62,341 nucleotides of DNA from a virus. Its lineage: Duplodnaviria > Caudoviricetes. Both the position numbers and the translations under genes were made by a program. Below, piece by piece: positions 5,571-32,206 of the stretch. The notes under the pieces are model-generated. The model did not search any database, was not told the origin of the DNA, and saw only the letters and a list, made by a program, of their open reading frames with translations. Each line of letters opens with the position of its first letter. The first letter of the stretch is position 1. The DNA lies in IMG/VR virus record IMGVR_UViG_3300042485_001404, positions 1-62,341 of that record. One strand, given 5' to 3'.

Positions 5571-6835
5571 GAAAGTATTTTAAAGAGTTAGAGGCACTTT
5601 TCAAAAGCCAAGATTCAATCTTAACCTATATTGATAAAATAGAGGCTATAAGAGAAGGTATTACAAAACCTGAAGAAGTTACTCAATTTGTAAATTTGAT
5701 TAGGGAGAAGGTCCAAGCTGAAGCTATACAAGCAGTTATTGCTAATGATGGTGGAATGATAGCTATGGCAACAGGTTCAGGTAAGTCAAGAGTAGCAGTA
5801 GAGTTAGCTAAATACTACTTTGACCCTAAAAATGATTATCATGCAGCTCTTTTAGTACCTACTGAAAAGCTAAGAGATGAGAATTGGAAAGAAGAATTTG
5901 AAAAGTGGGAAGCAAGAAATATATGGAAACATACTGAAAGACTTTGTTATGCTTCTGCATCTAAGATTAAAGGTATGGAAGTTCCTATAGCTATTCTTGA
6001 TGAAGGTCACAACATTACTGAATTAGGTGTTTCTTTCTTTATGAACAATAATGTTCAGAGAGTAGTATTACTTACTGCAACTCCTCCTACTGATATAGTT
6101 AAAAAGCAAATTTTATCTGACTTAGATATTAAACTTGTCTATGAACTTACTTTAGACCAAGCTGTAAGATTAGGCTTTGTAGCACCATATAAGATAACTG
6201 TAATTACAGTGCCTTTGGACAATGTTACAAAAAATATTACTGGTGGGACTAAAGCTAATCCTTTTATGACTACTGAATCTGCTACTTACTCCTATTGGAA
6301 TAAAAGAGTTCAGTCTTGTATGGGAGACCAAAGTGTAGTAGGAAGATCTAAAATGAAATTTGCAATTTTAGGTAGAATGCAATTCATCTATAAGATACCT
6401 TCTAAAACTGCAGTAATAAAGTTCTTACTTGACAAAGTAATACCTAAAACAGACAGAACTATTATCTTTTGTGGTAATATAGAACAAGCTGAAGAAGTTT
6501 GTCCTACATTCTACCATTCTAAATCAGGTAGTGCTTCTTATGATGCATTTAAAGCAGAGCAAATCAATAGATTATCCTGTGTTAAAGCAATCAATGAGGG
6601 ACATAACTTCCCTGGTGTAGATTCAGGAGTAATAGGACAGTTAAATTCTAAAGAGAAAGATTTGGTACAAAGAATTGGTAGATTGATTAGGTTTAGACCT
6701 GGCCATGAAGCTCATTTGTATATTGTAATCTCTGAATCAACTCAAGATGAGAAATGGCTAGAAACAGCTATTGAGAACTTAGATCAATCTAAGATAGAAC
6801 ATGTAAGATTTACTAATTTTAAAACAAGATTTTAA
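5567..6835 (+). CDS. SF2 (DExH) helicase
   Basis: ATGSGKS, LDEGH, LTATP and QRIGRLIR motifs. Confidence 0.9.
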   Translation: MRKYFKELEALFKSQDSILTYIDKIEAIREGITKPEEVTQFVNLIREKVQAEAIQAVIANDGGMIAMATGSGKSRVAVELAKYYFDPKNDYHAALLVPTEKLRDENWKEEFEKWEARNIWKHTERLCYASASKIKGMEVPIAILDEGHNITELGVSFFMNNNVQRVVLLTATPPTDIVKKQILSDLDIKLVYELTLDQAVRLGFVAPYKITVITVPLDNVTKNITGGTKANPFMTTESATYSYWNKRVQSCMGDQSVVGRSKMKFAILGRMQFIYKIPSKTAVIKFLLDKVIPKTDRTIIFCGNIEQAEEVCPTFYHSKSGSASYDAFKAEQINRLSCVKAINEGHNFPGVDSGVIGQLNSKEKDLVQRIGRLIRFRPGHEAHLYIVISESTQDEKWLETAIENLDQSKIEHVRFTNFKTRF

Positions 6836-6836
6836 T

Positions 6837-7379
6837 ATGAACATAAATCCACAAATTAGAGCTGTATTAGAGCAATTTAATATACCTGTAAATGATGCAA
6901 TAGCTTATCTTTTGTCAATACATTTTAATTGTAGACCTTCTTATACTCCACCACTATTAGTTCAAAGAATTAATGTTACAAACATTCTTGGTATTGATTC
7001 TAATAGAGAAGTGGTTTGGCATATTCCTTTATTTGAAGGAGATAGTCAGACTAAATGGGATTGGGTTAAAGAATGGAATGCAGGATTTGGACTTATCAAT
7101 AAAAAGAGAAAGGCTCCAGACAAAGATTGTATTACAAGAATGAAAGCTTTCTTTGCAGATAATCCTGATGTAAGAAAAGAAGAGATATATGGAGCAACTA
7201 AGATGTATATAAATACATTGACAAATGCAGAGTATTTAACTTCTTCTCATTACTTTATATCTAAGGGTGTAGGTAGAGACAGAACATCAGCACTTGAAGG
7301 TTGGGTAGAAAAGTATAGAGAGGCAATAGCCAATACTTCTATCAATGACAGTGTTGATATAACTTCAAGGATGCAATAA
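6837..7379 (+). CDS. hypothetical replication-module protein
   Basis: 180-aa ORF coupled to the DnaB-like gene (TAATG junction). Confidence 0.7.
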   Translation: MNINPQIRAVLEQFNIPVNDAIAYLLSIHFNCRPSYTPPLLVQRINVTNILGIDSNREVVWHIPLFEGDSQTKWDWVKEWNAGFGLINKKRKAPDKDCITRMKAFFADNPDVRKEEIYGATKMYINTLTNAEYLTSSHYFISKGVGRDRTSALEGWVEKYREAIANTSINDSVDITSRMQ

Positions 7380-10601: not shown

Positions 10602-11630
10602 ATGAGCAATTATCAATACCATTCAGATAACTTAAATAGAAGAGGTTTTATTAGTAAAGAAAGCATCTTAAGTCAAGTGACACAGGAAGAAATCTTTCAG
10701 TTAGTGTTCAAGTTTGCTCCTGAAGAATTTGACTATGTTGTTTCTCCTTTAAGAAGGGATAAAACTCCAGGCTGTTGGTTTAGTTACCATACTACTGGAG
10801 TTCTTTATTTCATTGATTTTGCTAGTAAAAGAACTCATAGTGATTGCTTTAATATAGTACAAGACTATTTCCAATTTCCCAATTTCTATCTGACTTTAGA
10901 ATACATTTACAACACCCTTATTCAAGGGAATGTTGCTCTGAAGCCCATAATACATTCAGAAGAAACTAAGAAATTAGCTAAAGAAAAAGTCAAACTCCTA
11001 ATTGAGGCAAGATCCTTTAGTTCTGCAGATGCACAGTTTTGGTCCCAATATGAGATTAGGAAACAGCACCTGATTGAAGACAGGGTATTTCCAGTTCAGA
11101 AGCTCTTTGCTTTAAACACTAAATCAGGTAGTCATATCATTGACTGTAAGGACATTGCTTACAGTTACAATGATTTTCCTGAAGCTAGAAAGAAAATCTA
11201 TTTTCCTATGAGAGAAGGCAAAAGAAGGTTCCTAACAAATTGTACTAAGAATGATGTAGGTGGCATCAATTCTTTAGTGCCTTATGGGAAAGAACTAATC
11301 ATTGCTAAATCTTATAAAGACTATAGAGTACTGAAGAATAATGGCAAGAATGTGGTATGGTTTCAGAATGAGGGTATGATACCCAATGACTCAATTCTAA
11401 ATGTTTTAATTCAACATTTTGTTTCTGTCATTGTATGGTTTGATAATGATGAACCAGGTATAACAGCCTCTGAAAGAGTCAAGAACTACATTAATACTTT
11501 TATTCCAGGTAAGGCTAAGAATCTTTGGCTTCCTGAGAGAGGTTTAGAGCTGGGTATAAAAGACCCTTCTGATTGCATAGCAAAAGATAAAATTTTATTT
11601 CACAATTTTCTAAAAGATTTTACACAATGA
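10602..11630 (+). CDS. DNA primase
   Basis: N-terminal SPLRRDKTPGC zinc-finger-like region; TOPRIM motifs KSYKD, WFDNDEPG, KDPSD. Confidence 0.88.
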   Translation: MSNYQYHSDNLNRRGFISKESILSQVTQEEIFQLVFKFAPEEFDYVVSPLRRDKTPGCWFSYHTTGVLYFIDFASKRTHSDCFNIVQDYFQFPNFYLTLEYIYNTLIQGNVALKPIIHSEETKKLAKEKVKLLIEARSFSSADAQFWSQYEIRKQHLIEDRVFPVQKLFALNTKSGSHIIDCKDIAYSYNDFPEARKKIYFPMREGKRRFLTNCTKNDVGGINSLVPYGKELIIAKSYKDYRVLKNNGKNVVWFQNEGMIPNDSILNVLIQHFVSVIVWFDNDEPGITASERVKNYINTFIPGKAKNLWLPERGLELGIKDPSDCIAKDKILFHNFLKDFTQ

Positions 11631-12166
11631 ATTTTAAGATTATTCACTCATCTTGGAACCCACTATTATCTGAGTTCAACACAGATGCTTTCTTAACTTT
11701 TAAAAATGAGATTCTAGTAAAAGAAAAATATTACCCTGAAGCTGATGAAGTATTCAGGGTTTTTTCTATGCCCTTGTCAGACATAAGGTTAGTCACTATC
11801 TTAAACAATTTTAGGATAATGAACATTGAAAAGCCTGTGGAACAAGGAGTTTTCTTTCTGCCTGTAACCTTAACAGAGGGAACAGATACAGATCACACAG
11901 AATACTGGGAACCTTTTATTAAGAAAGTCATTTATTTTATTGCAAGGAATCATCCTTGTATTTGGGTTCTCCCAACAACCAAATCACAAAGTTATGCAGC
12001 TAATCTACCTGTTAAAACTATTTTTAATGTGATGAAATATGATGATGAAACAATTCATCAAATTCCTATTAATGTAGATTACAATTATGTGTTTAAAGGA
12101 ATTAATATTAACTATAAGCACATAAATATCTTGCTAAAAAAGCTAGGTAAAAAAGAAATCAATTAG
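11627..12166 (+). CDS. uracil-DNA glycosylase (UNG)-like protein lacking catalytic motifs
   Basis: HSSWNPLL...YYPEADEVFRVFSMPLSDIRLV, QGVFFL..TLT and H...WEPFIKKVI match the UNG scaffold; GQDPY and HPSP are absent. Confidence 0.65.
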   Translation: MNFKIIHSSWNPLLSEFNTDAFLTFKNEILVKEKYYPEADEVFRVFSMPLSDIRLVTILNNFRIMNIEKPVEQGVFFLPVTLTEGTDTDHTEYWEPFIKKVIYFIARNHPCIWVLPTTKSQSYAANLPVKTIFNVMKYDDETIHQIPINVDYNYVFKGININYKHINILLKKLGKKEIN

Positions 12167-12189: not shown

Positions 12190-12819
12190 ATGAGTACTCA
12201 ACAAGAAAGAGAAATTACTATTTATGCCACTAGAGGTGGTCAAATGAAAAAAATCAACACTGCAGCAACTACTTGGGGTGAATTACAATCTTTAGTAAGA
12301 GCTGAAGGATTTGATTTAAGTTCATTATTAGCAGCAGAAAACATCAACAAGTCTGACTTAGTTAATGATTTAGCTGTGTTACCTACAACTGCTTTTAGAT
12401 TGTTTCTAAGACCAAAACAAACTAAATCTGGTGCAACTCCTGATAGAAAAGAATGTTTTTCTATCATCAAAGCTCACATTATTACATTTCCTGAAGATAA
12501 ACACTTGTTTAATATTGATGGTAAAAATGTAACTCAATTAGCTACACCTGTTGTACAAGAATTAGTAGCTAGATTTTGTACAAGAAGTACAACTTCTCAA
12601 CAAGTTGTAGCTACTCTTGATTCTATTGACAATTCTGATTTATCAGATATTGAAAAAGTTCAAGAAGCTATTGAATTACTTTCTACTTTAAATGAGTATA
12701 GTGCTCATTATGAAGCTTTTGAAGCTTTAGAAGAATTGTTAGAAGAAGTAAAACTTTTTTCTAATGTTTCCTCAGAAGAAGAAGAGTTAGCTAAAGAAGC
12801 TAGAAAGTTAGGTTATTAG
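12190..12819 (+). CDS. ubiquitin-like (beta-grasp) domain, aa 1-81 ending TKSG, fused to a C-terminal helical/acidic region
   Basis: Strand-strand-helix pattern (ITIY, KKINT, TWGELQSLV), LAVLP-x-FRLFLRP-x-TKSG tail; directly upstream of E2, JAB and E1 genes. Confidence 0.75.
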   Translation: MSTQQEREITIYATRGGQMKKINTAATTWGELQSLVRAEGFDLSSLLAAENINKSDLVNDLAVLPTTAFRLFLRPKQTKSGATPDRKECFSIIKAHIITFPEDKHLFNIDGKNVTQLATPVVQELVARFCTRSTTSQQVVATLDSIDNSDLSDIEKVQEAIELLSTLNEYSAHYEAFEALEELLEEVKLFSNVSSEEEELAKEARKLGY

Positions 12820-12827
12820 TATTAATC

Positions 12828-12861
12828 AAGGGCTTATGTAATGTAAGCCCTTTATTTTTTT
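12828..12861 (+). terminator. intrinsic terminator between Ubl and E2-like genes
   Basis: Hairpin AAGGGCTTAT / GTAAGCCCTT followed by TATTTTTTT. Confidence 0.8.
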
Positions 12862-12864
12862 ATT

Positions 12865-14070
12865 ATGAGAAATATAAAAGATAATAATGAGTATGGTTCT
12901 GAAATAAAAAAAATACTCAATAATGCAACTTTAATGGGTCTCCATAAAAACAAGAAGTTTTTAGCTACTTTATTTGACAAGTTTCACATTACAATGCCAG
13001 GACATGCATCTAGTAATAAAGAGAAAGTTAAAGCTGATTTTTTTACCATATTAGATTTATTTGAAGCAAAGTATAAAGACCAAGCTGATTTAGGTTTTCA
13101 TTATGATGAAGACAAAAATATAATGATACCTTACTTTAAAGTTATTTATCCAAAGTTTACTATCACTAATAGTCAAGGAAGATCTCATGTAATAAAAGAC
13201 CTAATTGTATGTCATACTTTTAAATTTGGAAATGGTTGTGTTTATCCTTCTAATTTATGGGGCACAAGATTGTCTAAAACTCATTTAGAAGTTCTATCTG
13301 GATATAATCAAAGTCATTTACCAAGACAGTCAGATTGGGCAAATACTTCTTTTTATTGTCAGCGTTTTTGTATAGGTTCTGACACAGATGTAAGCAGAAT
13401 GTTAGCAGAGTTTGAGGTAGAAATGGATTTAGACAGATATGAGTTATTCTTATTTTGTGTAGACAGTATGGTTACTTGGGAATCTTTAGAGGGTGTACCT
13501 TATATTAAAATGGAAGTAATTACTAATGCAGGATCTGATAGAGTTACAGGTGTTTCTGATGTTCTTATAGATAAAGTAGTTAAAACTATTATAGAAGAAA
13601 AACTTCCTTTAGATGTAGATTTCTATTTAGATGAAGGTATTTATAAAATACTTCCTAATGAAAGAGCAGGAGAATTTGTCAAGAAAATAGTAATAAGAAA
13701 GGTTCAGTTTGAAGAATCAAGAAGAATCCTTGTTAGTAGAGTTCCTAATACTTATGATAACTACTTGATGATGAAAACAGACTCATCTTTAGCAAGAAGT
13801 ACATCTAAGATTAACTCTCCAGATTACATCATTTTTAGGGGTAAAAAAGTCTACCCTAGAATAATTAAAGAAGATAGTAGAACTCAGGTTGCTGCTACAA
13901 TTGAAGACTATATTGTTTATCCTAAATTTTTAAAAAATGTCATTAGAAAACTTGAATACAGAATCTATGAAAAAGCAGTTGTCAAGAATGCAACTAAGCT
14001 CTTTAATACCCGTAGTGATGCCTCTAGAAGTGTTGCATCAGATACAGTATCTGTGCAGATTAATTTCTAA
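12865..14070 (+). CDS. prokaryotic E2-like conjugating enzyme (putative)
   Basis: SHLP (H151) ... FCIG (C169) resembles the HPH...CLG active-site pattern of prokaryotic E2 families; operon context supports it. Confidence 0.62.
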   Translation: MRNIKDNNEYGSEIKKILNNATLMGLHKNKKFLATLFDKFHITMPGHASSNKEKVKADFFTILDLFEAKYKDQADLGFHYDEDKNIMIPYFKVIYPKFTITNSQGRSHVIKDLIVCHTFKFGNGCVYPSNLWGTRLSKTHLEVLSGYNQSHLPRQSDWANTSFYCQRFCIGSDTDVSRMLAEFEVEMDLDRYELFLFCVDSMVTWESLEGVPYIKMEVITNAGSDRVTGVSDVLIDKVVKTIIEEKLPLDVDFYLDEGIYKILPNERAGEFVKKIVIRKVQFEESRRILVSRVPNTYDNYLMMKTDSSLARSTSKINSPDYIIFRGKKVYPRIIKEDSRTQVAATIEDYIVYPKFLKNVIRKLEYRIYEKAVVKNATKLFNTRSDASRSVASDTVSVQINF

Positions 14071-15139
14071 AGTAGAATGGTCAGGTGCTTTATTTTATAC
14101 TACAGAAGGTAGTATTGAAGACCCTTCAACATTTAAAATTACTTTAAAAACAATCCTTCCTTTAGATATGGGTTCTCAAGCCTATACTGAATACAATCTA
14201 GATGATAGATTTATGGATTTTATTGAAGAAGATTTTGAAGAGAGATGTACTTGGAAATTAGGGCATATCCATAGTCATAACAGTATGGCAGTATTTTTCT
14301 CAGGTACTGATATGGCAGAATTAAATGACAATGCTCCAGCACACAACTTTTACTTATCCTTAATTGTAAACAATGCCATGGATTTTATGGCCAAAGTTGC
14401 CTTTATAGGAGAAGCTAAAAGAGATATTAAACAGGTTCCTTATACAGCTAAAAATGTACAAGGCCAAGATTATATCATTGAGAAACAAGACTTTGAAGTT
14501 AACCTTCAAAAGTTGTTTATATATGACTGTGAAATTGATGCTCCTCTGATTAAAGCAGAAGTAGATGCACAATTTGCAGAGCAAGTTGCTAAAATCATGG
14601 AACCTAAACCTGTAAAAACTTTTGCTAAGTTCTCTCCTGATACCCAGACTCAATTTGGAAAAGGATGGGCTAGAAAAGAAGAAAAGAAAGATAAGTTTTG
14701 GGATACACCTGTTAAAAAGCCTTTTGAAGATTGGGACTTCCCTTATTTAGGCAAAGAAGAATATAATTTAGCAGAGTATGATTTAAGAGCTCAATCTATT
14801 TACAATTTTGCTAAGGCATTATTTGGTAAGGTTAGTTGTTTAACTCCAATAGAATTTGAAGAAGCAGAGTTAGAAGATGTCATAGATGAGTTGATTGAAT
14901 ATAGATTTTCTTATGCAGAAATAGCAAAACATATTATAGACAATTATGCTAAAACTTTTGCTATTCATTTTCCTAAAGCTTCTGCTACTGATTTTGTTCA
15001 GTACACAAATGAGTTAGTGGACTTACTAGAAGATTTGATTATGTTCTATCCACAACTTAAATTGACTATCAAAACAATTACATCAATGATTGATAAATTT
15101 ATTTCACATGAGACAAAGGGACACAACACAACAAAGTAG
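13937..15139 (+). CDS. JAB/MPN+ (JAMM) metalloprotease; true start may be 13967
   Basis: E47 (EWSG) and H112-S-H114-x7-S122-x2-D125 (HSHNSMAVFFSGTD), an intact JAMM motif. Confidence 0.9.
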   Translation: MSLENLNTESMKKQLSRMQLSSLIPVVMPLEVLHQIQYLCRLISKVEWSGALFYTTEGSIEDPSTFKITLKTILPLDMGSQAYTEYNLDDRFMDFIEEDFEERCTWKLGHIHSHNSMAVFFSGTDMAELNDNAPAHNFYLSLIVNNAMDFMAKVAFIGEAKRDIKQVPYTAKNVQGQDYIIEKQDFEVNLQKLFIYDCEIDAPLIKAEVDAQFAEQVAKIMEPKPVKTFAKFSPDTQTQFGKGWARKEEKKDKFWDTPVKKPFEDWDFPYLGKEEYNLAEYDLRAQSIYNFAKALFGKVSCLTPIEFEEAELEDVIDELIEYRFSYAEIAKHIIDNYAKTFAIHFPKASATDFVQYTNELVDLLEDLIMFYPQLKLTIKTITSMIDKFISHETKGHNTTK

Positions 15140-15806
15140 ATTTAAAGATGCTCCTTGGTTTCCTAGACACAATGAATTGTGTTTAGTAGGTGGAGCTGGT
15201 GGTATTGGTTCTTGGTTAACCTTTTTCTTAACTAAGATAGGTTTCAAAGTTAATTTGTATGATTTTGATGCTGTAGAAGACCACAACTTAGGTGGACAGT
15301 TATTTCAACAAGCAGATCTTGGGAAACCTAAAGTATTGGCTATGCAAAGTATAATTCGTAACTTTTGTAATGGTAATATCTCTACTTTTAATGAAGCAAT
15401 TACTAGAAATACACCTCATCATTATTACAGTTTTTCTGCTTTTGACAATATGGAAGCTAGAAGAACTTTATTTATGAATTGGAAAGATTCTTGGGGTTCT
15501 GCTGAAAACTTGGATACTCCTATATTCATAGATGGTAGATTAGAGATTGAGCAGTTACAAATATTTTGTGTGACACCTAGAAATGCAGATAAGTATGAAG
15601 CAGAGCACTTATTCCATGACTCAGCAGTTGAAGAAGCTCCATGTACAATGAAGCAAACTTCTCATACTGCAGCTATGATAGGCTCTCTTATGTCAGCTTT
15701 CTTTACTAATCATATTACTAATGTTTATTTAGGTGAGACCCTCAGAGAAGTCCCATTCTATTATGAGTTTGTAGTTCCTATGAACTTCACACAATCTGAA
15801 TTATGA
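15090..15806 (+). CDS. ThiF/E1-like activating enzyme; true start may be 15108
   Basis: GAGGIGSW, DFDAVEDHNL, GKPKV, AFDNMEAR, DGR motifs and candidate catalytic Cys in EAPCT. Confidence 0.92.
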   Translation: MINLFHMRQRDTTQQSRFKDAPWFPRHNELCLVGGAGGIGSWLTFFLTKIGFKVNLYDFDAVEDHNLGGQLFQQADLGKPKVLAMQSIIRNFCNGNISTFNEAITRNTPHHYYSFSAFDNMEARRTLFMNWKDSWGSAENLDTPIFIDGRLEIEQLQIFCVTPRNADKYEAEHLFHDSAVEEAPCTMKQTSHTAAMIGSLMSAFFTNHITNVYLGETLREVPFYYEFVVPMNFTQSEL

Positions 15807-16993
15807 TTACTAGAAGTACCATAGGGTCTATGAAAACTTCCCAGTTTGAAATGACTGCTGTTATTGCTAATGATTACATTCCTTTATTTGCTTTTCAACA
15901 AGCTATAATTCATGATGAAGTTATTGGTTACTACAATAAACCTTCAAGAGAAGATTGTCTTGTTAAAGCTAACACTATTAAAAACATCAGAGATGCTTTT
16001 GAAATGGCTCATAACCCAAGGAAAATCAATATCAATGGCAGGAATTTTATTATAGCTAAAGGAGTTTTTCTTTCAGAGTCAGGGGAAACCCTAATGATTT
16101 GCTCTATGAAGAAAGAACACTTTTTAAATCCAAGTGTAGATAACTTCTCTGATTATTATTCACTTGGTAAATCCACATTCTCCTACTCAAATTATGTTTT
16201 ATTTTACTCCACTTCTTTTTTCACTGACCCTAGTCTAAGTGCCTTAAATAGGAGACTTCAAAAAGAGATGTTACAATTTTGCTATGAAAAAGGAATAGAA
16301 GTCAGAATGCTGCCTTCATCAGAAATTGAAAAGAATACCTTTGCAAAATTATTTGAAGTCAAAAAGACAAAGTCTTTGACACAATTAGAAGCCTACATGG
16401 CACAAGTACTACCAAACTTTTTACACAATGGAGGAGAGGACACCTTTATTGAGCAAGATTTTGAACCAGTAGTATATGAACATGAAGAAGAACTTTCTGT
16501 AGAACAAGAAGCTTTATTGTATGATTCTGAAGCTCAACCTGAAGAAGAATTTGATGATGATGAAATTTGGGATGATGATTTAGAAGCAAATAATGAATTA
16601 GCTGCTGAATTAGCTGAATTAGCTGCTGAAGCTGCTCAATTTGATCAACCTTTAGACCCACCTACTGTAAATACAGAAGATTGGGAAGGAGGTTGGGAAG
16701 AAGCTGAACAAGCTGTTGAAGAATTAGAAAGACAAGTAGAAAGACAATCAGATGAGGAAGTTACCCATATAACTCAACCTTATTCTGAAAACCCTATTTT
16801 ATACAGATTTATGTCATATCCAGTTACACAAGGAGAATGTTATGTCCCTGTTAGAAATGAGGATAACTTTGAGTCTGAAATTGTTAGACAACAACGTAGA
16901 GAACAAATAGAGCAAGATTTTGCTTTATTTAGTCTCCACAATACTGTTACAACTTCTAATCCTTCAATAGAGCTTATTGATGATACAGAATAG
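15803..16993 (+). CDS. hypothetical protein with long acidic C-terminal half
   Basis: 396-aa ORF with ATGA overlap to the E1 gene. Confidence 0.75.
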   Translation: MITRSTIGSMKTSQFEMTAVIANDYIPLFAFQQAIIHDEVIGYYNKPSREDCLVKANTIKNIRDAFEMAHNPRKININGRNFIIAKGVFLSESGETLMICSMKKEHFLNPSVDNFSDYYSLGKSTFSYSNYVLFYSTSFFTDPSLSALNRRLQKEMLQFCYEKGIEVRMLPSSEIEKNTFAKLFEVKKTKSLTQLEAYMAQVLPNFLHNGGEDTFIEQDFEPVVYEHEEELSVEQEALLYDSEAQPEEEFDDDEIWDDDLEANNELAAELAELAAEAAQFDQPLDPPTVNTEDWEGGWEEAEQAVEELERQVERQSDEEVTHITQPYSENPILYRFMSYPVTQGECYVPVRNEDNFESEIVRQQRREQIEQDFALFSLHNTVTTSNPSIELIDDTE

Positions 16994-26791: not shown

Positions 26792-29700
26792 TTATTCTTC
26801 ATTTATATTCATTTCTTCTTGATCTTCTGAGTATAAATCTCTATCAGGAAATTTATAGTCTTTCTTTTTTCTAAGAGCTCTTTTTACTTTTCTATCTGTT
26901 CTAACTTGTTCTTCTATTGAAAGATCATTATACTCTTTTCCAAACAGTTCTTTGGCAATTTCAGTTTCAGTATTAAGTTTAATCTCTTCTCTTGCCTCTT
27001 CTTGTTCTTTTTTGTCTTTTTTATAATCAGATTCAAACATTGTATCAATTTTATCATTTTTTTGATACTCTTCATTTCCAACTATTTCAAATCCTCCCAT
27101 CCACTCTTCTTTTCCAATATTTCTAAACATTTGAGGTAACAGAGCTTTTCTTAAGTTTACACTAGTTTTTGTATCTCCATGATATATACTACCAACTTTA
27201 CTATATCTTTCCCCAGAGTCTCCAAAATAAGATTGTCCTGCTAATTTACCTAGTCCTTCTAAAGGACCCATAACTGTAGAGTCATCTCCTAAATACATAT
27301 TTAAAGTTGAAAGAAGGTTATGACCTAAATTCATCTCATCATATTCTCTTTGATTAATATTTTTAATAGTATGAAATAAAAAAGCTTTTTCTTTTCTTCT
27401 TTCTTGCTGAGCAATGTATCTTTTTTCTTGTTCACTACCTTGTTTACCTTTAGCTTCAGTTTCTTCATCATCATCATCTCCTAAGAAAAGTTGAGCCAAA
27501 ACAGCAATCAATAAAGTAGTATTACTTTTTTGAAACATCCTGGTCAAGTTTCTTAAGTTAGTGGCAGCTCTTTCATCTAGTTTTCCATTAAAAGTGCTGT
27601 CAATATTAATTAAAGTTTGTGGTCCTGGAATAGTTCCAGAATAACTTCCTCCTATTAATCTAAACATATTCCAAACTTTATTAACAGGTATTTCTAAAGT
27701 GCCTAAAGTAGATGCTTTAAGTATGTAGCCTAAAGTTTCTTTTAAAGCTAACTGAGAAGGAACATTTTGTTGTCCCATTCTTACAGCTATAGACTTTCTA
27801 TTTTTAAAATAAAGAGCTCCAGCTATAGCTCCTGTAAGAGCTAATCCTAAACCACCTGTGGCAGCTACAGTAGCTACTCCATAAGATAATAAAGGTGTCA
27901 TTAAAATTCCTGTAGCAACATTTCCTACTAACATTGTAGAAGCCATTCCTCTTGTTCTTTTATCTAATAAAGAACCAGAAATAAAACCATCCTTAGTTTT
28001 TCCAAAAGCCACACTTTTTTGATCTACTGCCCATCTACTATGGTAATACTCTCCAGCCCAAGTTTTAAATAATAAGAGAGTTTGACCTCCTACACTACCT
28101 TTAGCTTTTATTACCCCTGATACACTATAATCTCCATTTAAACTTTGTATAGCTCTACTTACTTGTGTTTTCCAAAGACCCATTTTAAAAGAGTCAAAGT
28201 TTTCATAGTCTTTTACATTGTCAGGAGTTCTAAACTCACTCTTAAGTTTTAATTGTCCTGTAATAGAATCTACTTCATGTGCAGGAAAACCTGTTCCATC
28301 AAATAAAGGAACAACTTCATTTGTAGTAGGATTAACTATAGTTAAATCAGCAGCCATGGCCAGCATAACTGGAATTTGATTGTACCACTCAATTAACTCT
28401 GTTCCATATAAAGGGTTTTGAACCCATCTTTTTAAATTGTAGATTTTAGGAGATTCTGTAACACCTGTTTTCTTTGCTTTTTGCATTTCATTTGTACCAT
28501 CTTGAACTAAGTCTAATTGATGAACAAAAGCTTCCATTGTTTTCCATTGTTTTGCATAAGCAGGATTTACCCTTCTTGTAGCATGCATATCAACAAAAGC
28601 AAAAGCTGGATAAGCGTTACCTTCTTTCCAAAATTCTCCATCTCTGTGAAAAAAGTTAGACCTAGCATTAAGGTAGTTATAAACCATACCTAAACTTGCA
28701 TATCCTAACCCTACCCCAATAGCTAAACCTTTGTTAAGAAGATTACTAACTATTGTAGTAGCCATATAATCTTTACCCATAAGAGTAACTCTCTGTTCTA
28801 TAGAAAGTTTTTCTTTTTCTAACTCTAGTTGTTGTGGAGTATTAGTTGCATTATTACTAGCAAGATTATCTAAAGTTTCTTTAATAAAATCCCATCTTTT
28901 CTTCATAACTCTGTACTGAATTTTTTCTTCAGGACTAAAGTTTTTATGATGAAAGTTAAGAAGATATTTAAACATGTCATCTGGTTCAATTAGTTCTCCA
29001 TTGGCATATTTGTTTTCATAGGTTTTCTTATCTCTTAACTTAGAGATATTTCCAGAATGTTTAGGTTCTGATTCATTTAAGACTGCATTTTCATAAAAGT
29101 AATCATTTCTTTTTTGAGCATTAGTCCTAACTTGACCAGATTTTCTTGTTGAAGTATCTTCCTCTAAATTAGACTTACCTTCTCTATTTTTTACTAAATT
29201 GTTTACTCCCCTAAGGATATCTATATTGTCTTTAGCAACTGTTCTAGCTTTGTGAAGTACACTTTGTTCTAATAAAGCTTTAATTAACATAGGTAAATCT
29301 GTAGTTTGTTGCTCCATTACAGATATTCTATTAAATATCTTTAATGCCCCAACTCTTACTCCCCCTGTTTTATCAAGAGTTATTTGATCTAAAAAGTCTT
29401 GTTCATTATTAATACCTAAGGCTTCATAAATCTCAGATTTTAAATTTAGAGGAATGGCATTCCAATTTAAGACAGTTTCATTTTTAAGATTTGCTCTCAA
29501 AATATTTGAGAGTTGCATCTTCATTACATCAAAGTCTTTTTCAACTATATTTTGAAAAGAATTAATACTTACAGGTAACTGTACTTCTTGTTCTTTTCCT
29601 TTAATTTTTTGTTTTACACTAAAATTATCTTTAACATGTTGAACAGTATTTAAAACATTTTCTTTACTTGGAATAGCTTTTACACTATTATAAAATCCTT

Positions 29701-32206
29701 TATCTAAAGCTGTTTCTAACAGTCCTTTAGACATGTGAAGAATAGTTTTACTATTTAACTTTAAATTAGAGTCTATAAGACTATCATTTATTTGATATAA
29801 AGAGTCTTCAAAAACCTGCCAAAAATCTCTTAAATCTTGGTTTTTTTCAATAACTTCAAAGTCTTTATCATAGTACCCTGTAGTCATATTTTGATAGTTA
29901 TTTCTTTTTGGAATGTAAGTATTGAATTCTAGATAAGAATATTTAACATTACTTGCAGTACCTAAAGTGTACTCTATCATACCTTGTTTACCAGTGTTAT
30001 GAGACTCTAAAAATTCAGCTGGATTATATCTTTTAAGACTTACATCTATGTTATCTTTTGAATATTGAGATAAATCTACATAAGAAAACTTATTTTCTTT
30101 TTTTAAAGCTGCAGAAACCAATTCTGCTTCTTTACTCAAAAAATTTTGTAATTGACTGACTTGTTCTTTTACAAGTTTATTGTATTCAGATGCTCCAATA
30201 TTATCAATCAAATACTGCTTATAAATAGCATTATTAGCAGGATTTGTCTTAAACATAACTTTTAACCTAGGATCTGTAACTAAAGCAGCTACATCATCTA
30301 GTAACCTAAAATCCACAAAATCAACATTGGCATTTAACTTATAGTATTTTTCTCTAAGTAAAGTTTCAACTTTTGTCCAATCTTTTGCATATCTAGCCTG
30401 AAAGATGTTTGTGCTTGCTTCAAAGTTAAAATTATTAATAAAACTATCCCATTTTTGACTAAACTTACTTACTAAAGTTGGAATAGGATTTCCTTTGTCA
30501 TCTTTTCTATAAAAAAGAGCTTGATAGTTATAAAAAGAAAATTTTGTTGTTCCTTCTATCCCAACTCCTACAGAAGTAACTAGACCCATTTTTAGAAGTT
30601 CTGCTTCTACTTTAGGTAGTAATTTATTAACCTTTTGTATAAGTCTTTGTACTCTTGGTTTTTCTATTTCTACTTGTATATCATACTCTAATCTCATTAA
30701 TTCTGCAATAAGATCAGATTCACTTATAAGATTCTTACCTTGAGTTAAAAAGTTAGCTTCTAAAGAAGTAATATCTTGTAAATTAGAAGTTAAAATATCT
30801 TTAATTTCTTCTAAACTTTTACCTGGATACAGTTCTTTAATATTGTTTTCATATTTACTTAGTATCTCAATAAAGTGATCATTTCTGGCCTTATTTATTT
30901 TAGCTATAAGACCTGTATTTAAGTGAGAAACCTCTTTTATTAAATTACTTACTTCAGGAGTAAATTCTTTACCTTCTTCTGTTTTAAATAATTGAGAATT
31001 AGGGTTAATAAAATTTAAGTTTACTTCAATAAAATCTGAAATATCTTCAGCTAAGAAAAAGTTTTCTATACTAGGAGTATTAATTAAGTCTCTAATTAAA
31101 TTAATATCTCTATACAAAAGACTTTCAACAGTTTTAAAATAGTCTGTTGAAGTTCTTAAATCTTCTAAATCTTTTTCTAAATTAGTTTTTATACTTTTTA
31201 AATAAGTTATTCTAGAAGAAAGTCTATCAGAAGTTCCTTCTATTCTTTCCTTAGCTTTAAGTTTGTCTATTTGTTTTTGGATTTTTGCTACTTGCTCTTT
31301 TCTTTTAACTTTGTAATAATCATAAGTAGGATCAATGTAAATTGAATTACTAGGATTATTAATATTTAAAGCTAAATCCTCTTCTTCATCCCACTCTTCT
31401 TCAAAATTAGCAATAGTGTTTAAATAGTTTTCCCACTGAGTTCTATCAGAATAAATTTCCCCTGTTTCAGGGTTAAAAAATCCTTGAAACTGGCTATGAG
31501 GCAAAGTTTTAAGGTAAGCAAGTTCTTCTCTAGCATCTTGTTTAGTTTGTACTTCACTTTTGTAAATACCTTTACTTTCTAAGAACCTTTCATACATGTA
31601 TTGTTGAAATTGTTCTAAGGGGATATCTTGCATACCCTCTGCAAAAGTCTGTAACAAATCATTACTGTAACCTACTTTAATAATATTTTTATAAGGACTA
31701 TCTACTTGAGATACAACTTGTAAAAAATTTGATGTATAAGAGGGATGTGCTATTTTTGACATCCTTTTTGCTAAAGATAAGGTATTATTATTTACAGCAG
31801 TTGTAGTATCTCTTTTATGTGTAGGTTCCACAACAACTCTTTGTACAAGACCAGCTTTTCCTTTCTCAACTTTATAACTAATAGCAGAGTAACCTATAGC
31901 ATCATCCACTTTTTGACTAATTGCATAAGCAGCTAATGTCAAATCTTCTCTTGAATGATAAGAGTTTCTAAAAGATGTAAACTCTTCTAGGGAAAAATTA
32001 GAGTCCTCCTTTATATTTTGACTTAAAGGAAGGGCATAATCCTCTTCTTCTATTTCTGGTTTAATCTCTTGTAAAGTAGGATACTTATCTAATCCATTAG
32101 CTTCTTGCCACAAAGAAATCTTTGCAGCAAGAATTATTGGATTAATATTAGATTGGTCAGCTAATGCTTTAAACTCTTTAGTACTAGTACTTACACAATT
32201 TGTCAT
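26792..32206 (-). CDS. giant internal virion/ejection protein
   Basis: 1804 aa, adjacent to the vRNAP gene, hydrophobic Gly/Ala-rich segments near the C-terminus, a single Cys. Confidence 0.75.
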   Translation of the reverse strand: MTNCVSTSTKEFKALADQSNINPIILAAKISLWQEANGLDKYPTLQEIKPEIEEEDYALPLSQNIKEDSNFSLEEFTSFRNSYHSREDLTLAAYAISQKVDDAIGYSAISYKVEKGKAGLVQRVVVEPTHKRDTTTAVNNNTLSLAKRMSKIAHPSYTSNFLQVVSQVDSPYKNIIKVGYSNDLLQTFAEGMQDIPLEQFQQYMYERFLESKGIYKSEVQTKQDAREELAYLKTLPHSQFQGFFNPETGEIYSDRTQWENYLNTIANFEEEWDEEEDLALNINNPSNSIYIDPTYDYYKVKRKEQVAKIQKQIDKLKAKERIEGTSDRLSSRITYLKSIKTNLEKDLEDLRTSTDYFKTVESLLYRDINLIRDLINTPSIENFFLAEDISDFIEVNLNFINPNSQLFKTEEGKEFTPEVSNLIKEVSHLNTGLIAKINKARNDHFIEILSKYENNIKELYPGKSLEEIKDILTSNLQDITSLEANFLTQGKNLISESDLIAELMRLEYDIQVEIEKPRVQRLIQKVNKLLPKVEAELLKMGLVTSVGVGIEGTTKFSFYNYQALFYRKDDKGNPIPTLVSKFSQKWDSFINNFNFEASTNIFQARYAKDWTKVETLLREKYYKLNANVDFVDFRLLDDVAALVTDPRLKVMFKTNPANNAIYKQYLIDNIGASEYNKLVKEQVSQLQNFLSKEAELVSAALKKENKFSYVDLSQYSKDNIDVSLKRYNPAEFLESHNTGKQGMIEYTLGTASNVKYSYLEFNTYIPKRNNYQNMTTGYYDKDFEVIEKNQDLRDFWQVFEDSLYQINDSLIDSNLKLNSKTILHMSKGLLETALDKGFYNSVKAIPSKENVLNTVQHVKDNFSVKQKIKGKEQEVQLPVSINSFQNIVEKDFDVMKMQLSNILRANLKNETVLNWNAIPLNLKSEIYEALGINNEQDFLDQITLDKTGGVRVGALKIFNRISVMEQQTTDLPMLIKALLEQSVLHKARTVAKDNIDILRGVNNLVKNREGKSNLEEDTSTRKSGQVRTNAQKRNDYFYENAVLNESEPKHSGNISKLRDKKTYENKYANGELIEPDDMFKYLLNFHHKNFSPEEKIQYRVMKKRWDFIKETLDNLASNNATNTPQQLELEKEKLSIEQRVTLMGKDYMATTIVSNLLNKGLAIGVGLGYASLGMVYNYLNARSNFFHRDGEFWKEGNAYPAFAFVDMHATRRVNPAYAKQWKTMEAFVHQLDLVQDGTNEMQKAKKTGVTESPKIYNLKRWVQNPLYGTELIEWYNQIPVMLAMAADLTIVNPTTNEVVPLFDGTGFPAHEVDSITGQLKLKSEFRTPDNVKDYENFDSFKMGLWKTQVSRAIQSLNGDYSVSGVIKAKGSVGGQTLLLFKTWAGEYYHSRWAVDQKSVAFGKTKDGFISGSLLDKRTRGMASTMLVGNVATGILMTPLLSYGVATVAATGGLGLALTGAIAGALYFKNRKSIAVRMGQQNVPSQLALKETLGYILKASTLGTLEIPVNKVWNMFRLIGGSYSGTIPGPQTLINIDSTFNGKLDERAATNLRNLTRMFQKSNTTLLIAVLAQLFLGDDDDEETEAKGKQGSEQEKRYIAQQERRKEKAFLFHTIKNINQREYDEMNLGHNLLSTLNMYLGDDSTVMGPLEGLGKLAGQSYFGDSGERYSKVGSIYHGDTKTSVNLRKALLPQMFRNIGKEEWMGGFEIVGNEEYQKNDKIDTMFESDYKKDKKEQEEAREEIKLNTETEIAKELFGKEYNDLSIEEQVRTDRKVKRALRKKKDYKFPDRDLYSEDQEEMNINEE

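What the first reader, a model, noticed from the sequence alone, without database searches (positions are those of the whole stretch)
12190..15806. Complete phage-encoded ubiquitin-like conjugation operon (Ubl fusion, E2, JAB, E1) in a lytic replication module
Seen: four consecutive genes. They encode a beta-grasp-like domain ending TKSG, a protein with an H...FCIG motif (C169), an intact JAMM protease (E47, HSH-x7-S-x2-D) and a ThiF/E1 with nucleotide-binding motifs and a candidate Cys. The last three overlap one another. Known: E1+E2+JAB+Ubl sets define bacterial ubiquitination-like systems (PRTRC cassettes, Bil anti-phage defence, CBASS Cap2/Cap3), mostly characterised on the host side. Inference: this phage runs its own protein-conjugation pathway during the replication phase, modifying host defence proteins or its replisome, or countering host Ubl defences. 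No sulfur-transfer or cofactor genes are nearby, and an E2 argues against a ThiS/MoaD role. The E2 call is the weakest link.
Basis: partly seen in the sequence, partly recalled or inferred. Interest (0 to 1): 0.93.

Follow-up and report, generated by a model that had tools for sequence, protein, structure and literature searches.

The report
Phage ubiquitin-like protein activation gene block
A crAss-like phage carries, inside its DNA-replication genes, a conserved set of four genes for a ubiquitin-like protein, a trimming protease, an activating enzyme and an unclassified cysteine-histidine protein, which suggests that these phages tag proteins much as cells do with ubiquitin.

Summary
The four ORFs and their motifs are real. 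Three calls hold. (1) 12190-12819 begins with a beta-grasp ubiquitin-like domain (AF2 pLDDT 87.5; best Foldseek PDB hits are Ubl, UBX, ISG15, SUMO, NEDD8). It ends in K79-S80-G81, with K79 and G81 invariant in 60 of 60 sequences. Three relatives encode only this domain plus one residue. (2) 13937-15139 is a JAB/JAMM peptidase: E47, H112, H114, S122 and D125 are invariant in 69 of 69. (3) 15090-15806 is a minimal ThiF/E1 domain (Pfam 7e-15) with invariant C185. The E2 call is not established. The 401-aa protein has invariant H151 and C169 and a helix, four strands, loop and helices in the UBC order. No HMM library, PDB profile search, hhalign or Foldseek search links it significantly to E2s. 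The block is syntenic in 74 of 74 usable IMG/VR loci and in FpV4 and crAss001. GenBank labels there are 'thiamine biosynthesis protein', 'metalloprotease' and 'hypothetical'. Most likely it is a phage-encoded Ubl processing, activation and transfer system. Conjugation, targets and the E2 role remain inferred.

The parts
12190..12819 (+). Ubl-fusion precursor (209 aa). Residues 1-81 form a beta-grasp ubiquitin-like domain ending K79-S80-G81 (G81 codon 12430-12432). A variable linker follows, then a helical C-terminal extension ending in an invariant Gly-Tyr.
   Evidence: AF2 model: pLDDT 87.5; strands 7-13, 18-24, 46-50, 69-75; helix 29-38. The best-ranked Foldseek PDB hits are mostly Ubl, UBX, ISG15, SUMO and NEDD8 domains at prob 1.00, TM by target 0.5-0.7 and rmsd 2.4-3.8 A for most, E 5e-3 to 3e-2; none reaches E<=0.001. 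K79 and G81 are invariant in 60 of 60 sequences at 20-71% identity. Stand-alone forms that end one residue after KSG occur in L065, L086 and L095, each with a TAA stop.
12865..14070 (+). 401-aa Cys/His protein of no known family, the candidate E2-like acceptor or transferase. Invariant H151 (13315-13317) and C169 (13369-13371), plus G171, E206 and S207.
   Evidence: The family is large: 2574 representative clusters at E<=1e-3. S150, H151, C169, G171, E206, S207 and P212 are invariant in 117 sequences down to 20% identity. AF2 model: pLDDT 83.8; helix 49-73, four strands 74-135, a loop holding H151 and C169, helices 175-203, then a C-terminal alpha/beta domain. No significant match in Pfam, NCBIfam, PADLOC, PDB sequences or Foldseek PDB. 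BFVD matches only uncharacterised crAss-like orthologues.
13937..15139 (+). JAB/JAMM metallopeptidase (400 aa). The JAB domain spans about residues 25-160: E47 (14075-14077), H112, H114, S122, D125 (14270-14311). A long helical C-terminal extension of unknown role follows.
   Evidence: The JAMM residues are invariant in 69 of 69 orthologues. 27 of 62 orthologues match Pfam Prok-JAB at E<=0.01, best 1.9e-5. The window protein itself scores Prok-JAB E=0.045 and PADLOC JAB E=0.023. The crAss001 orthologue gp77 is annotated 'metalloprotease domain containing protein'.
15090..15806 (+). Minimal E1-like (ThiF) adenylation domain (238 aa; the start may be the ATG at 15108). G35-x-G37-G38, D58, D60, N66, Q70, K81, D119, R124, D148, R150 and C185 (15642-15644) are invariant. 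The canonical Arg of the N-L-x-R-Q motif is an invariant Gly (G69).
   Evidence: Pfam ThiF 7e-15, 55.3 bits against a cut-off of 28.1. The family profile matches MccB at 2.8e-11, UBA5 at 7.5e-11, SAE2, ThiF, MoeB and Cap2 in the PDB. Conservation is 66 of 66 and 62 of 62.
15803..16993 (+). Downstream 396-aa protein of unknown function with a long acidic C-terminal half. Its start overlaps the E1 stop. It may be a fifth member of the block.
   Evidence: It was found directly after E1 in 53 of the 71 loci in which HMMs detected all four genes. It overlaps E1 or lies within 20 nt in 52 of those. No family beyond PHROG 15446, function unknown. The Atlas gave nothing.

Best explanation
This is a phage-encoded ubiquitin-like protein (Ubl) processing, activation and transfer system built into the replication module of a crAss-like (Fipvunavirus/Steigviridae-type) phage. 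Proposed steps follow, and all are inferred unless marked otherwise. (1) The 209-aa precursor is cut by the JAB metallopeptidase right after the invariant K79-S80-G81. This frees an 81-residue beta-grasp Ubl with a C-terminal Gly and releases a variable C-terminal extension. (2) The minimal, probably homodimeric, ThiF-type E1 adenylates G81 and takes the Ubl onto its invariant C185. By my recollection of ThiF and MoeB, C185 sits where their crossover-loop Cys lies. (3) The Ubl passes to the invariant C169 of the 401-aa protein, which acts as a functional analogue of an E2, or as a fused E2/E3, and attaches it to protein targets during the replication phase. JAB may also reverse the modification. 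What is shown: the folds and motifs of Ubl, JAB and E1, the invariance of the key residues, and the strict gene linkage. What is inferred: cleavage, thioesters, the role of the 401-aa protein, conjugation itself and the targets.
For: The Ubl fold and ubiquitin-type matches are. K79 and G81 are invariant in 60 of 60 sequences while the sequence after G81 varies in length and content. Three phages encode only the Ubl plus one residue, with TAA stops. That is the pattern of precursors that must be trimmed to expose Gly. The JAMM site is intact and invariant in 69 of 69, and 27 of 62 orthologues match Prok-JAB. The E1 domain is above the Pfam cut-off and has an invariant Cys, 66 of 66. The 401-aa protein has invariant His/Cys across 117 divergent sequences. 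Its helix, four strands, loop with His...Cys and helices follow the UBC order. Its best-ranked PDB hits, none significant, include two UBC-superfamily folds as I recall them: CENP-O/Mcm21 RWD at E 0.012 and TSG101 UEV at E 0.13. All four genes stand in the same order in 74 of 74 IMG/VR loci with at least 3.3 kb upstream: 71 by HMM and 3 by inspection, near-duplicates included. The same holds in FpV4, crAss001 and Bajarodcaudo virus and in 3 of the 4 prokaryote-MAG loci; the fourth, L101, has only 129 bases upstream of the E1 match. E2-like and JAB overlap in 67 of 71 loci, and JAB and E1 overlap in 56 of 71. There is precedent in bacteria. In Bil, the JAB DUB pre-processes the Ubl to expose Gly (PMC10557695, abstract). 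In Bub type I, a Ubl fusion is cut after a conserved Gly by a JAB-E1 protein whose E1 is a minimal homodimer (PMC11601596, Results part 1).
Against: No test ties the 401-aa protein to E2/UBC. Pfam, NCBIfam and PADLOC give nothing for it or for 117 and 62 relatives. A PDB profile search gives nothing. hhalign against five Cap2-like Prok-E2_B domains gives probability 0.6%. Foldseek PDB has 0 hits at E<=0.001, and NTF2-like folds rank beside the UBC-like ones. Its strands are about 16 residues long, longer than I recall for UBC folds. The His-Cys spacing is 18 and the motif is S-H-L rather than H-P-N. The E1 lacks the canonical Arg of N-L-x-R-Q, an invariant Gly here, so its chemistry could differ. 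The E1 profile matches MccB and TcdA as well as Ubl-activating E1s, so the sequence does not fix the substrate class. JAB, E1 and Ubl triads also serve sulfur-carrier pathways; CysO/Mec+ and QbsE/QbsD are recalled examples, and Iyer 2006 (PMC1779556, passages) lists such operons. No expression, cleavage or conjugate data exist.
Confidence: 0.5

Rival explanations
1. A sulfur-carrier pathway. JAB trims the precursor, the E1 adenylates G81, and a host sulfur donor converts it to a thiocarboxylate. The 401-aa Cys/His protein then uses that sulfur to thiolate a nucleotide, tRNA, DNA base or cofactor needed during replication.
For: The E1's best NCBIfam matches are ThiF and MoeB models (3.2e-13 for PRK08644), and GenBank curators called it 'thiamine biosynthesis protein'. 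Ubl, JAB and E1 operons for sulfur transfer are known (PMC1779556, passages; CysO/Mec+ and QbsE/QbsD are recalled). The block sits among nucleotide-metabolism genes. The partner protein is not demonstrably an E2.
Against: All ThiF and MoeB equivalog scores are far below cut-off (49.8 against 159 bits and lower). No rhodanese, cysteine desulfurase, ThiG/MoaE-like or PP-loop protein appeared in the ORFs I scanned around the block. The Ubl model matches ubiquitin, UBX, ISG15 and SUMO domains, with no ThiS or MoaD among the listed hits. The tail is K-S-G, not the G-G that I recall as usual for ThiS and MoaD. The C-terminal extensions are long, which sulfur carriers rarely have.
Confidence: 0.17
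2. Ubl, JAB and E1 work as a three-part unit without an E2. The E1 transfers the activated Ubl directly to an amine or to a specific partner, or makes a C-terminally modified Ubl as MccB and PaaA do with peptides. The 401-aa protein would then be the target, an adaptor or a replication factor whose invariant His, Cys and Glu bind a metal or catalyse another reaction.
For: The E1 profile's best PDB matches are MccB at 2.8e-11 and PaaA at 3.5e-9, alongside UBA5. No E2 homology is detectable. Most relatives have H-S-H at 149-151 together with C169 and E206, which could be a metal site. The C-terminal half of the 401-aa protein is a separate alpha/beta domain.
Against: H149 is Gln in the window's whole clade, so a His-x-His metal site is not universal. 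The 401-aa gene is always wedged between Ubl and JAB and usually overlaps JAB, as expected for a stoichiometric partner in the same pathway. An invariant lone Cys next to an invariant His is typical of acyl-transfer sites.
Confidence: 0.2
3. A counter-defence device. The phage JAB strips host Ubl or CD-NTase conjugates made by Bil-type or CBASS type II systems, and the phage Ubl and E1 act as decoys or competitors for host machinery.
For: The E1 weakly resembles Cap2, BilD and 6A-MBL Cap2-like models (PADLOC E1-E2 8.4e-7, BilD 6.3e-3; NF058523 2.8e-6). Host Ubl systems are antiphage (abstracts of PMC10557695 and PMC11601596).
Against: These matches cover only the generic Rossmann part of the E1 (residues about 27-110). 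The block keeps a fixed place in the replication module across phages of Flavobacterium, Bacteroides and unknown hosts, unlike typically patchy anti-defence genes. A decoy would not need an intact adenylation site, an invariant Cys and a processing protease.
Confidence: 0.08

Closest known systems
Bil (BilABCD) bacterial ubiquitination system
   Same: It has four parts: Ubl, a Cys protein, a JAB peptidase and an E1. The JAB pre-processes the Ubl to expose its C-terminal Gly (PMC10557695, abstract).
   Different: [quoted passage not shown] The phage E1 is a single 238-aa adenylation domain with its Cys in the core. BilB is a recognisable E2, whereas the phage 401-aa protein matches no E2 model. 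Bil is a host defence, whereas this block is in a lytic-type phage replication module.
Bub type I (6E.1/DUF6527) operons
   Same: The Ubl is made as a fusion and cut just after a conserved Gly by a JAB peptidase. The E1 is a minimal homodimeric ThiF/UBA5-like domain (PMC11601596, Results part 1).
   Different: In Bub the fusion partner is the E2, JAB is fused to the E1, the catalytic residues are Ser and Tyr (oxyester), and a DUF6527 serine protease is present. Here the fusion partner is a helical extension that some phages lack, JAB and E1 are separate genes, and both candidate carriers keep an invariant Cys.
CBASS type II Cap2/Cap3
   Same: An E1-like adenylation domain plus a JAB peptidase. 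The E1 profile matches Cap2 chains (3.8e-5).
   Different: Cap2 is an E2-E1 fusion that conjugates the CD-NTase C-terminus, with no separate Ubl. hhalign of the phage protein against five Cap2-like E2 domains gives probability 0.6%.
Phage tail-assembly Ubl/JAB pair (lambda TAPI/TAPK)
   Same: It is phage-encoded: a Ubl with a conserved C-terminal Gly followed by a further domain, next to a JAB peptidase predicted to cut at that Gly (PMC1779556, passages).
   Different: It has no E1 and no Cys/His partner, and it lies in the tail module with JAB fused to NlpC/P60. The present block lies in the replication module and includes an E1.
ThiS/ThiF, MoaD/MoeB and JAB-containing sulfur-carrier pathways
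   Same: A beta-grasp carrier ending in Gly, a ThiF-family adenylating enzyme with a Cys that I recall as equivalent to ThiF C184 and MoeB C187, and in some pathways a JAB that trims the carrier.
   Different: Scores are far below every ThiF and MoeB equivalog cut-off. No Zn-binding CxxC pairs or rhodanese domain are visible in the 238-aa protein (read from the sequence; motif recalled). No sulfur-transfer or cofactor genes lie nearby. The Ubl model resembles ubiquitin-type domains.
PRTRC (ParB-related, ThiF-related cassette)
   Same: It is carried on mobile elements and holds a ThiF-family protein with associated small proteins. TIGR03736 matches weakly (1.2e-7).
   Different: The score is 31.4 bits against a cut-off of 144.75. 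None of the other proteins matches any NCBIfam model at E<=0.1, PRTRC models included. No ParB was seen among the neighbours scanned.

Membership tests
Ubiquitin-like beta-grasp modifier or carrier (Ubl) | Beta-grasp fold (beta-beta-alpha-beta-beta-beta) | tested here: met
   AF2 with 60 sequences, pLDDT 87.5, elements E7-13, E18-24, H29-38, E46-50, E69-75. Foldseek PDB matches to Ubl, UBX, ISG15, SUMO and NEDD8 domains at prob 1.00 and TM by target 0.5-0.7, though E is only 5e-3 to 3e-2.
Ubiquitin-like beta-grasp modifier or carrier (Ubl) | Flexible tail after the last strand that ends in a conserved Gly | tested here: met
   G81 and K79 are invariant in 60 of 60. In the three loci that the HMM missed, the ORF in the slot carries IKSG, VKSG or MKGG.
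Ubiquitin-like beta-grasp modifier or carrier (Ubl) | The Gly is C-terminal, or is exposed by processing of a precursor | tested here: inconclusive
   Three relatives stop one residue after KSG, with TAA. Elsewhere a variable extension follows. Cleavage itself cannot be tested here.
Ubiquitin-like beta-grasp modifier or carrier (Ubl) | Covalent attachment to targets through the C-terminal Gly | not testable with these tools
   This needs biochemistry or mass spectrometry.
JAB/JAMM/MPN+ metallopeptidase | E...H-x-H-x7-S-x2-D zinc site | tested here: met
   E47, H112, H114, S122 and D125 are present and invariant in 69 of 69.
JAB/JAMM/MPN+ metallopeptidase | Match to a JAB family model | tested here: inconclusive
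   The window protein scores Prok-JAB E=0.045, 14.1 bits against a cut-off of 25, and PADLOC JAB 0.023. 27 of 62 orthologues match at E<=0.01, best 1.9e-5. The PDB profile search finds only CSN5 at E=0.45.
E1-like (ThiF/MoeB/UBA) adenylation domain | Match to the ThiF family model above cut-off | tested here: met
   PF00899 7e-15, 55.3 bits against 28.1. The profile matches UBA5, MccB, SAE2, ThiF and MoeB.
E1-like (ThiF/MoeB/UBA) adenylation domain | Gly-rich nucleotide loop and the Asp of the D-N motif (motifs recalled) | tested here: met
   G35-x-G37-G38, D58, D60, K81 and D119 are invariant.
E1-like (ThiF/MoeB/UBA) adenylation domain | Arg of the N-L-x-R-Q motif (motif recalled) | tested here: not met
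   The position is G69, invariant in 66 of 66. The invariant R17 near the N-terminus may act as the arginine finger, which is an inference.
E1-like (ThiF/MoeB/UBA) adenylation domain | Cys in or near the crossover loop for an acyl intermediate | tested here: inconclusive
   C185 is invariant in 66 of 66. Its equivalence to ThiF C184 and MoeB C187 rests on my recollection of those sequences, not on an alignment made here.
E2/UBC fold conjugating enzyme | Match to a UBC or prokaryotic E2 sequence model | tested here: not met
   No E2 family appears in Pfam for the protein or for 117 relatives. None appears in PADLOC or NCBIfam for 62 relatives. The PDB profile search is empty. hhalign against five Prok-E2_B domains gives probability 0.6%. 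Only the Prok-E2_B family was compared by hhalign.
E2/UBC fold conjugating enzyme | UBC fold by structure comparison | tested here: inconclusive
   Model pLDDT is 83.8, and the element order is helix, four strands, loop, helices. Foldseek PDB gives 0 hits at E<=0.001. CENP-O (RWD) at E 0.012 and TSG101 UEV at E 0.13 with TM 0.38 are mixed with NTF2-like folds. The whole 401-aa model was searched, not the domain alone.
E2/UBC fold conjugating enzyme | Invariant catalytic Cys with an upstream His (H-P-N type, recalled) | tested here: inconclusive
   C169 and H151 are invariant, but the motif is S-H-L and the spacing is 18, against about 10 as I recall for UBC.
Bil system | [quoted passage not shown] | tested here: not met
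   The E1 is 238 aa with a single ThiF domain. The PADLOC BilD match is only E=0.0063 over residues 51-127.
Bub type I | Ubl-E2 fusion, JAB-E1 fusion and a DUF6527 protease (PMC11601596) | tested here: not met
   Here the genes are separate. The fusion partner of the Ubl is not the Cys/His protein. No DUF6527 match appears in the Pfam scans.
PRTRC cassette | PRTRC ThiF equivalog score and a ParB homologue | tested here: not met
   TIGR03736 scores 31.4 bits against a cut-off of 144.75. No PRTRC model matches the other proteins. ParB was not specifically searched for.
ThiS/ThiF or MoaD/MoeB sulfur-carrier pathway | Equivalog-level match and linked sulfur-transfer or cofactor genes | tested here: not met
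   The best ThiF model scores 49.8 bits against 159. The scanned neighbours are replication and repair genes. A host-supplied sulfur donor cannot be excluded.

The most novel reading that the evidence does not exclude
A large lineage of lytic-type Bacteroidota phages, including cultured crAss001 and the Flavobacterium FpV phages, runs its own ubiquitin-like conjugation cascade during genome replication. The cascade uses a previously unrecognised family of Cys/His Ubl-transferases (more than 2500 sequence clusters) that is either an extremely diverged E2 or an independent invention of one. If so, viruses of bacteria, and not only their hosts, use ubiquitin-like tagging, and a new class of conjugating enzyme exists.
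Probability: 0.35. Interest if true: 0.9.

Novelty: new variant of a known kind. Interest (0 to 1): 0.74.

Why it matters
Ubiquitin-like conjugation in bacteria has so far been characterised as host antiphage immunity (Bil, CBASS Cap2/Cap3, Bub). The phage-encoded Ubl/JAB pair I found described is the tail-assembly TAPI/TAPK pair, which lacks an E1 (PMC1779556). Here a Ubl, JAB and E1 set plus an invariant Cys/His protein is a fixed part of the replication module of a widespread phage group. That group includes isolates that can be grown (crAss001, DAC15, crAssBcn, FpV4). In GenBank these genes carry the labels 'thiamine biosynthesis protein', 'metalloprotease domain' and 'hypothetical'. If the system conjugates, it opens a testable question: what do phages tag during replication? 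It would also add a new enzyme family to Ubl biology. If it proves to be a sulfur carrier, it would point to an unknown thio-modification made by these phages. My searches of open-access papers and bioRxiv found no paper linking crAss-like phages with ThiF, JAB or ubiquitin-like systems. Subscription papers and all supplements could not be searched. The founding crAss-like family paper of 2018 could not be fetched under the id I tried, and its gene tables may already name the E1 or JAB.

Tried and rejected
E2 homology was tested in several ways, all negative or not significant:
- Pfam, NCBIfam and PADLOC on the window protein.
- Pfam on 117 relatives. PADLOC and NCBIfam on 62 relatives.
- hmmsearch of the family profile against PDB sequences: one hit at E=1, a BED domain.
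- Foldseek PDB with the whole model: 0 hits at E<=0.001.
- Foldseek BFVD: only uncharacterised crAss-like orthologues.
- ESM Atlas on residues 40-215: no hit by features, and the Atlas's own model is poor at pLDDT 0.38.
- hhalign of the 40-215 region of A3 against five Cap2-like Prok-E2_B N-termini taken from Bacteroidota genomes: probability 0.6%.

The other prokaryotic E2 families and eukaryotic UBC were not compared by hhalign. I had no tool-derived sequences for them.

Complex prediction of E1 (A6) with the 401-aa protein (A7) returned 'no answer' with scores 0.02 and 0.00. The controls were not run.

The Atlas search on the downstream protein gave nothing. A search for short stand-alone Ubl proteins in the protein database gave one 81-aa fragment from a 1.1-kb contig, which is uninformative.

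I considered a cysteine-protease reading of the His...Cys pair (permuted papain-like, 2A/3C-like). The only hints are a single YiiX-family hit at E=0.075 in 1 of 62 relatives and Foldseek rows for picornavirus proteases at E 0.3-0.7. I rejected it as unsupported, though it is not excluded. I also considered that the short Ubl ORFs reflect stop-codon recoding. I rejected this because all three end in TAA and several more stops follow.

Megablast of the block against phages found no near relative.

Full report
WHAT THE WINDOW IS. The window is a virus record. Its + strand from about 0.7 to 26.5 kb is a replication module. It encodes a Dda-like helicase, a DNA polymerase, further helicases, a Sak4-like annealing protein, a primase (10602-11630), a UDG-like gene (11627-12166), a RusA-like resolvase, a PD-(D/E)XK exonuclease, thymidylate synthase and DNA ligase. 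The closest named relatives are the roughly 90-kb Flavobacterium psychrophilum phages of genus Fipvunavirus, such as FpV4, with 59.6% identity in the E1. More distant relatives are crAss001-type Bacteroides phages of the Steigviridae, at about 33%.

THE OBSERVATION. The four ORFs exist at the stated coordinates, and the last three overlap. The quoted motifs are all present. Every one of them proves to be conserved far beyond the close relatives.

THE UBL. The 209-aa protein has at least 608 relatives in the protein database. An alignment of 60 sequences from the window and IMG/VR loci, at 20-71% identity, has only two invariant columns: K79 and G81. They close a conserved segment of about 80 residues. 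What follows G81 varies in sequence and length. Three phages (L065, L086, L095) have a TAA stop one residue after K-S-G, with further stops behind it. There the gene encodes only the 78-82-residue domain. In the three loci where my HMM missed the gene, the ORF in the same slot carries IKSG, VKSG or MKGG.

AlphaFold2 on the 60-sequence alignment gives pLDDT 87.5 and a beta-beta-alpha-beta-beta-beta grasp for residues 7-75, followed by a free tail. Foldseek against the PDB returns ubiquitin-like domains almost exclusively for this part: an Arabidopsis Ubl, TBCE-Ubl, UBX domains, ISG15, SUMO, NEDD8, Hub1 and Caldiarchaeum ubiquitin. These have probability 1.00, TM by target 0.5-0.7 and rmsd 2.4-3.8 A for most. 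The E-values are only 5e-3 to 3e-2, as expected for an 80-residue domain, and none reaches 1e-3. No ThiS or MoaD chain is among the listed hits. So the first gene encodes a Ubl precursor whose Gly is the conserved end of the functional unit.

THE JAB. The window protein barely touches Pfam Prok-JAB (E=0.045). However, E47, H112, H114, S122 and D125, the full JAMM zinc site, are invariant in 69 of 69 orthologues. In addition, 27 of 62 orthologues match Prok-JAB at E<=0.01. The C-terminal 240 residues are helical and unassigned; they match only designed helical repeat proteins.

THE E1. Pfam ThiF matches at 7e-15, above the cut-off. The family profile matches MccB, UBA5, PaaA, SAE2, UBA6, ThiF, NAE1-UBA3, TcdA, MoeB and Cap2. 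That is the whole E1-like superfamily, with no clear subfamily. Invariant residues include the Gly-rich loop, D58, D60, N66, Q70, K81, D119, R124, D148, R150 and C185. Two points stand out. First, the Arg that I recall as canonical in the N-L-x-R-Q motif is an invariant Gly, G69. Second, the protein is only 238 aa, with no second adenylation domain, no Cys domain, no UFD and no CxxC pairs. In crAss001-type phages it carries an N-terminal extension of about 150 aa.

THE 'E2'. This protein belongs to a very large family: 2574 representative clusters at E<=1e-3. Across 117 members down to 20% identity, only S150, H151, C169, G171, E206, S207 and P212 are invariant. That pattern points to a catalytic or ligand site. 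The AF2 model (pLDDT 83.8) has a long helix (49-73), four long antiparallel strands (74-135), a short helix, a loop carrying H151 and then C169, and two helices (175-203). A second alpha/beta domain follows. The order of elements matches that of the UBC fold.

I could not confirm homology, however. Nothing appears in Pfam, NCBIfam or PADLOC, for the protein or for its relatives. Nothing appears in PDB sequences. hhalign gives probability 0.6% against five Cap2-like Prok-E2_B domains. Foldseek gives no hit at E<=0.001. Its best rows include two folds I recall as UBC-superfamily, the CENP-O/Mcm21 RWD at E 0.012 and the TSG101 UEV at E 0.13, but also many NTF2-like proteins. I therefore treat it as a Cys/His protein of unknown family that stands where an E2 would stand.

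LINKAGE. A pattern scan of IMG/VR with an E1 alignment found 355 relatives, of which 79 loci were fetched. Of the 74 loci with at least 3.3 kb upstream of the E1, 71 show Ubl, Cys/His protein, JAB and E1 in that order by HMM. The other three show the same on inspection. These loci include near-duplicates: 61 distinct E1 and E2-like pairs. The Cys/His and JAB genes overlap in 67 of 71 loci, and the JAB and E1 genes in 56 of 71. A further conserved gene follows the E1 in 53 of 71.

The same order holds in FpV4, crAss001 (gp79-gp76) and Bajarodcaudo virus 1. In 185,579 species-level prokaryote genomes, the E1 patterns found only four loci, all in MAGs. Three carry the whole block, and the fourth is a 3.7-kb contig cut too close to the E1. 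In the named phage collection, 79 of 50,697 records hold the E1 and 74 hold the JAB. The five records that differ by organism name are four Xanthomonas phages and one Erwinia phage. The annotations there are 'thiamine biosynthesis protein', 'metalloprotease domain containing protein', 'E1 enzyme family protein' and 'hypothetical protein'.

MECHANISM. The anatomy fits a precursor, protease, E1 and acceptor pathway. JAB cuts after G81. The E1 adenylates the Gly and may carry it on C185. The Cys/His protein takes it on C169 and passes it on. Bacterial precedents exist for each of the first steps. The Bil DUB pre-processes its Ubl (PMC10557695, abstract). The Bub JAB-E1 cuts a Ubl fusion after a conserved Gly and is a minimal homodimeric E1 (PMC11601596, Results part 1). 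None of these steps is shown here.

The main rivals are a sulfur-carrier pathway and a three-part system in which the 401-aa protein is not an E2 analogue. I give the conjugation-type reading about 0.5. I am much more confident, about 0.85, that the Ubl, JAB and E1 form one functional unit acting on the Ubl's C-terminal Gly.

NOVELTY AND LIMITS. The parts belong to known kinds. The setting is new as far as my searches reach: a strictly conserved piece of a phage replication module. So are the architecture (a Ubl fused to a dispensable extension, with separate minimal E1 and JAB) and the unclassified Cys/His partner.

Noticed in passing
L016:5821-7600 (same contig as L033): The E1 gene is interrupted right after its GGAGGIG nucleotide-binding motif by a group I intron (Rfam RF00028, 89 bits, E 4.6e-23, L016:6715-6995). 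The intron carries a 268-aa ORF with two LAGLIDADG-like motifs (5982-6788). The E1 reading frame resumes near 7001.
   Followed up: partly
GenBank KT876726.1 (FpV21), MK764449.1 and FPSV phages, JAB gene: The JAB match is split into two pieces spread over about 2.3 kb, with four annotated hypothetical CDS. This suggests an insertion inside the JAB gene of these Flavobacterium phages.
   Followed up: no
L099 (contig DASYBV010000020.1, 373,651 bases, Puia sp. MAG): The whole four-gene block lies inside a 373-kb contig binned to a Bacteroidota genome. It could be an integrated or plasmid-like crAss-like element, or an assembly chimera.
   Followed up: no
window 12445-12819 (residues 86-209 of the Ubl precursor): The extension after the Ubl has a conserved helical segment (DRKECF...IDGKNVTQL), a variable low-complexity linker and an invariant C-terminal Gly-Tyr. 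Three phages lack the extension entirely, and its role is unknown.
   Followed up: partly
window 15090-15110: The longest E1 ORF starts at a TTG inside the JAB gene. An ATG at 15108 (residue 7) agrees better with where relatives start to align.
   Followed up: partly
window 11627-12166: The 179-aa gene between the primase and the Ubl is a shortened relative of the gene annotated uracil-DNA glycosylase in FpV4 (249 aa there). In crAss001-type phages the homologue lies downstream of the block.
   Followed up: no
L055:4174-5982, L080:2716-4803, L091:3193-4908: Some relatives have much longer versions: a JAB of 602 aa and Cys/His proteins of 695 and 571 aa. These suggest inserted or fused extra domains.
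   Followed up: no
window 26792-32206 (- strand) and about 26.5 kb: An 1804-aa ORF (PHROG 14721, function unknown) opens the minus-strand half of the window. GC skew changes sign at the same place.
   Followed up: no
Xanthomonas phages Ep026 and PhiXhv-15 (about 228 kb) and one Erwinia phage: These large phages hold an E1 relative (29% identity) but are not among the records with a JAB match. They may have a lone ThiF-like gene in a different setting.
   Followed up: no
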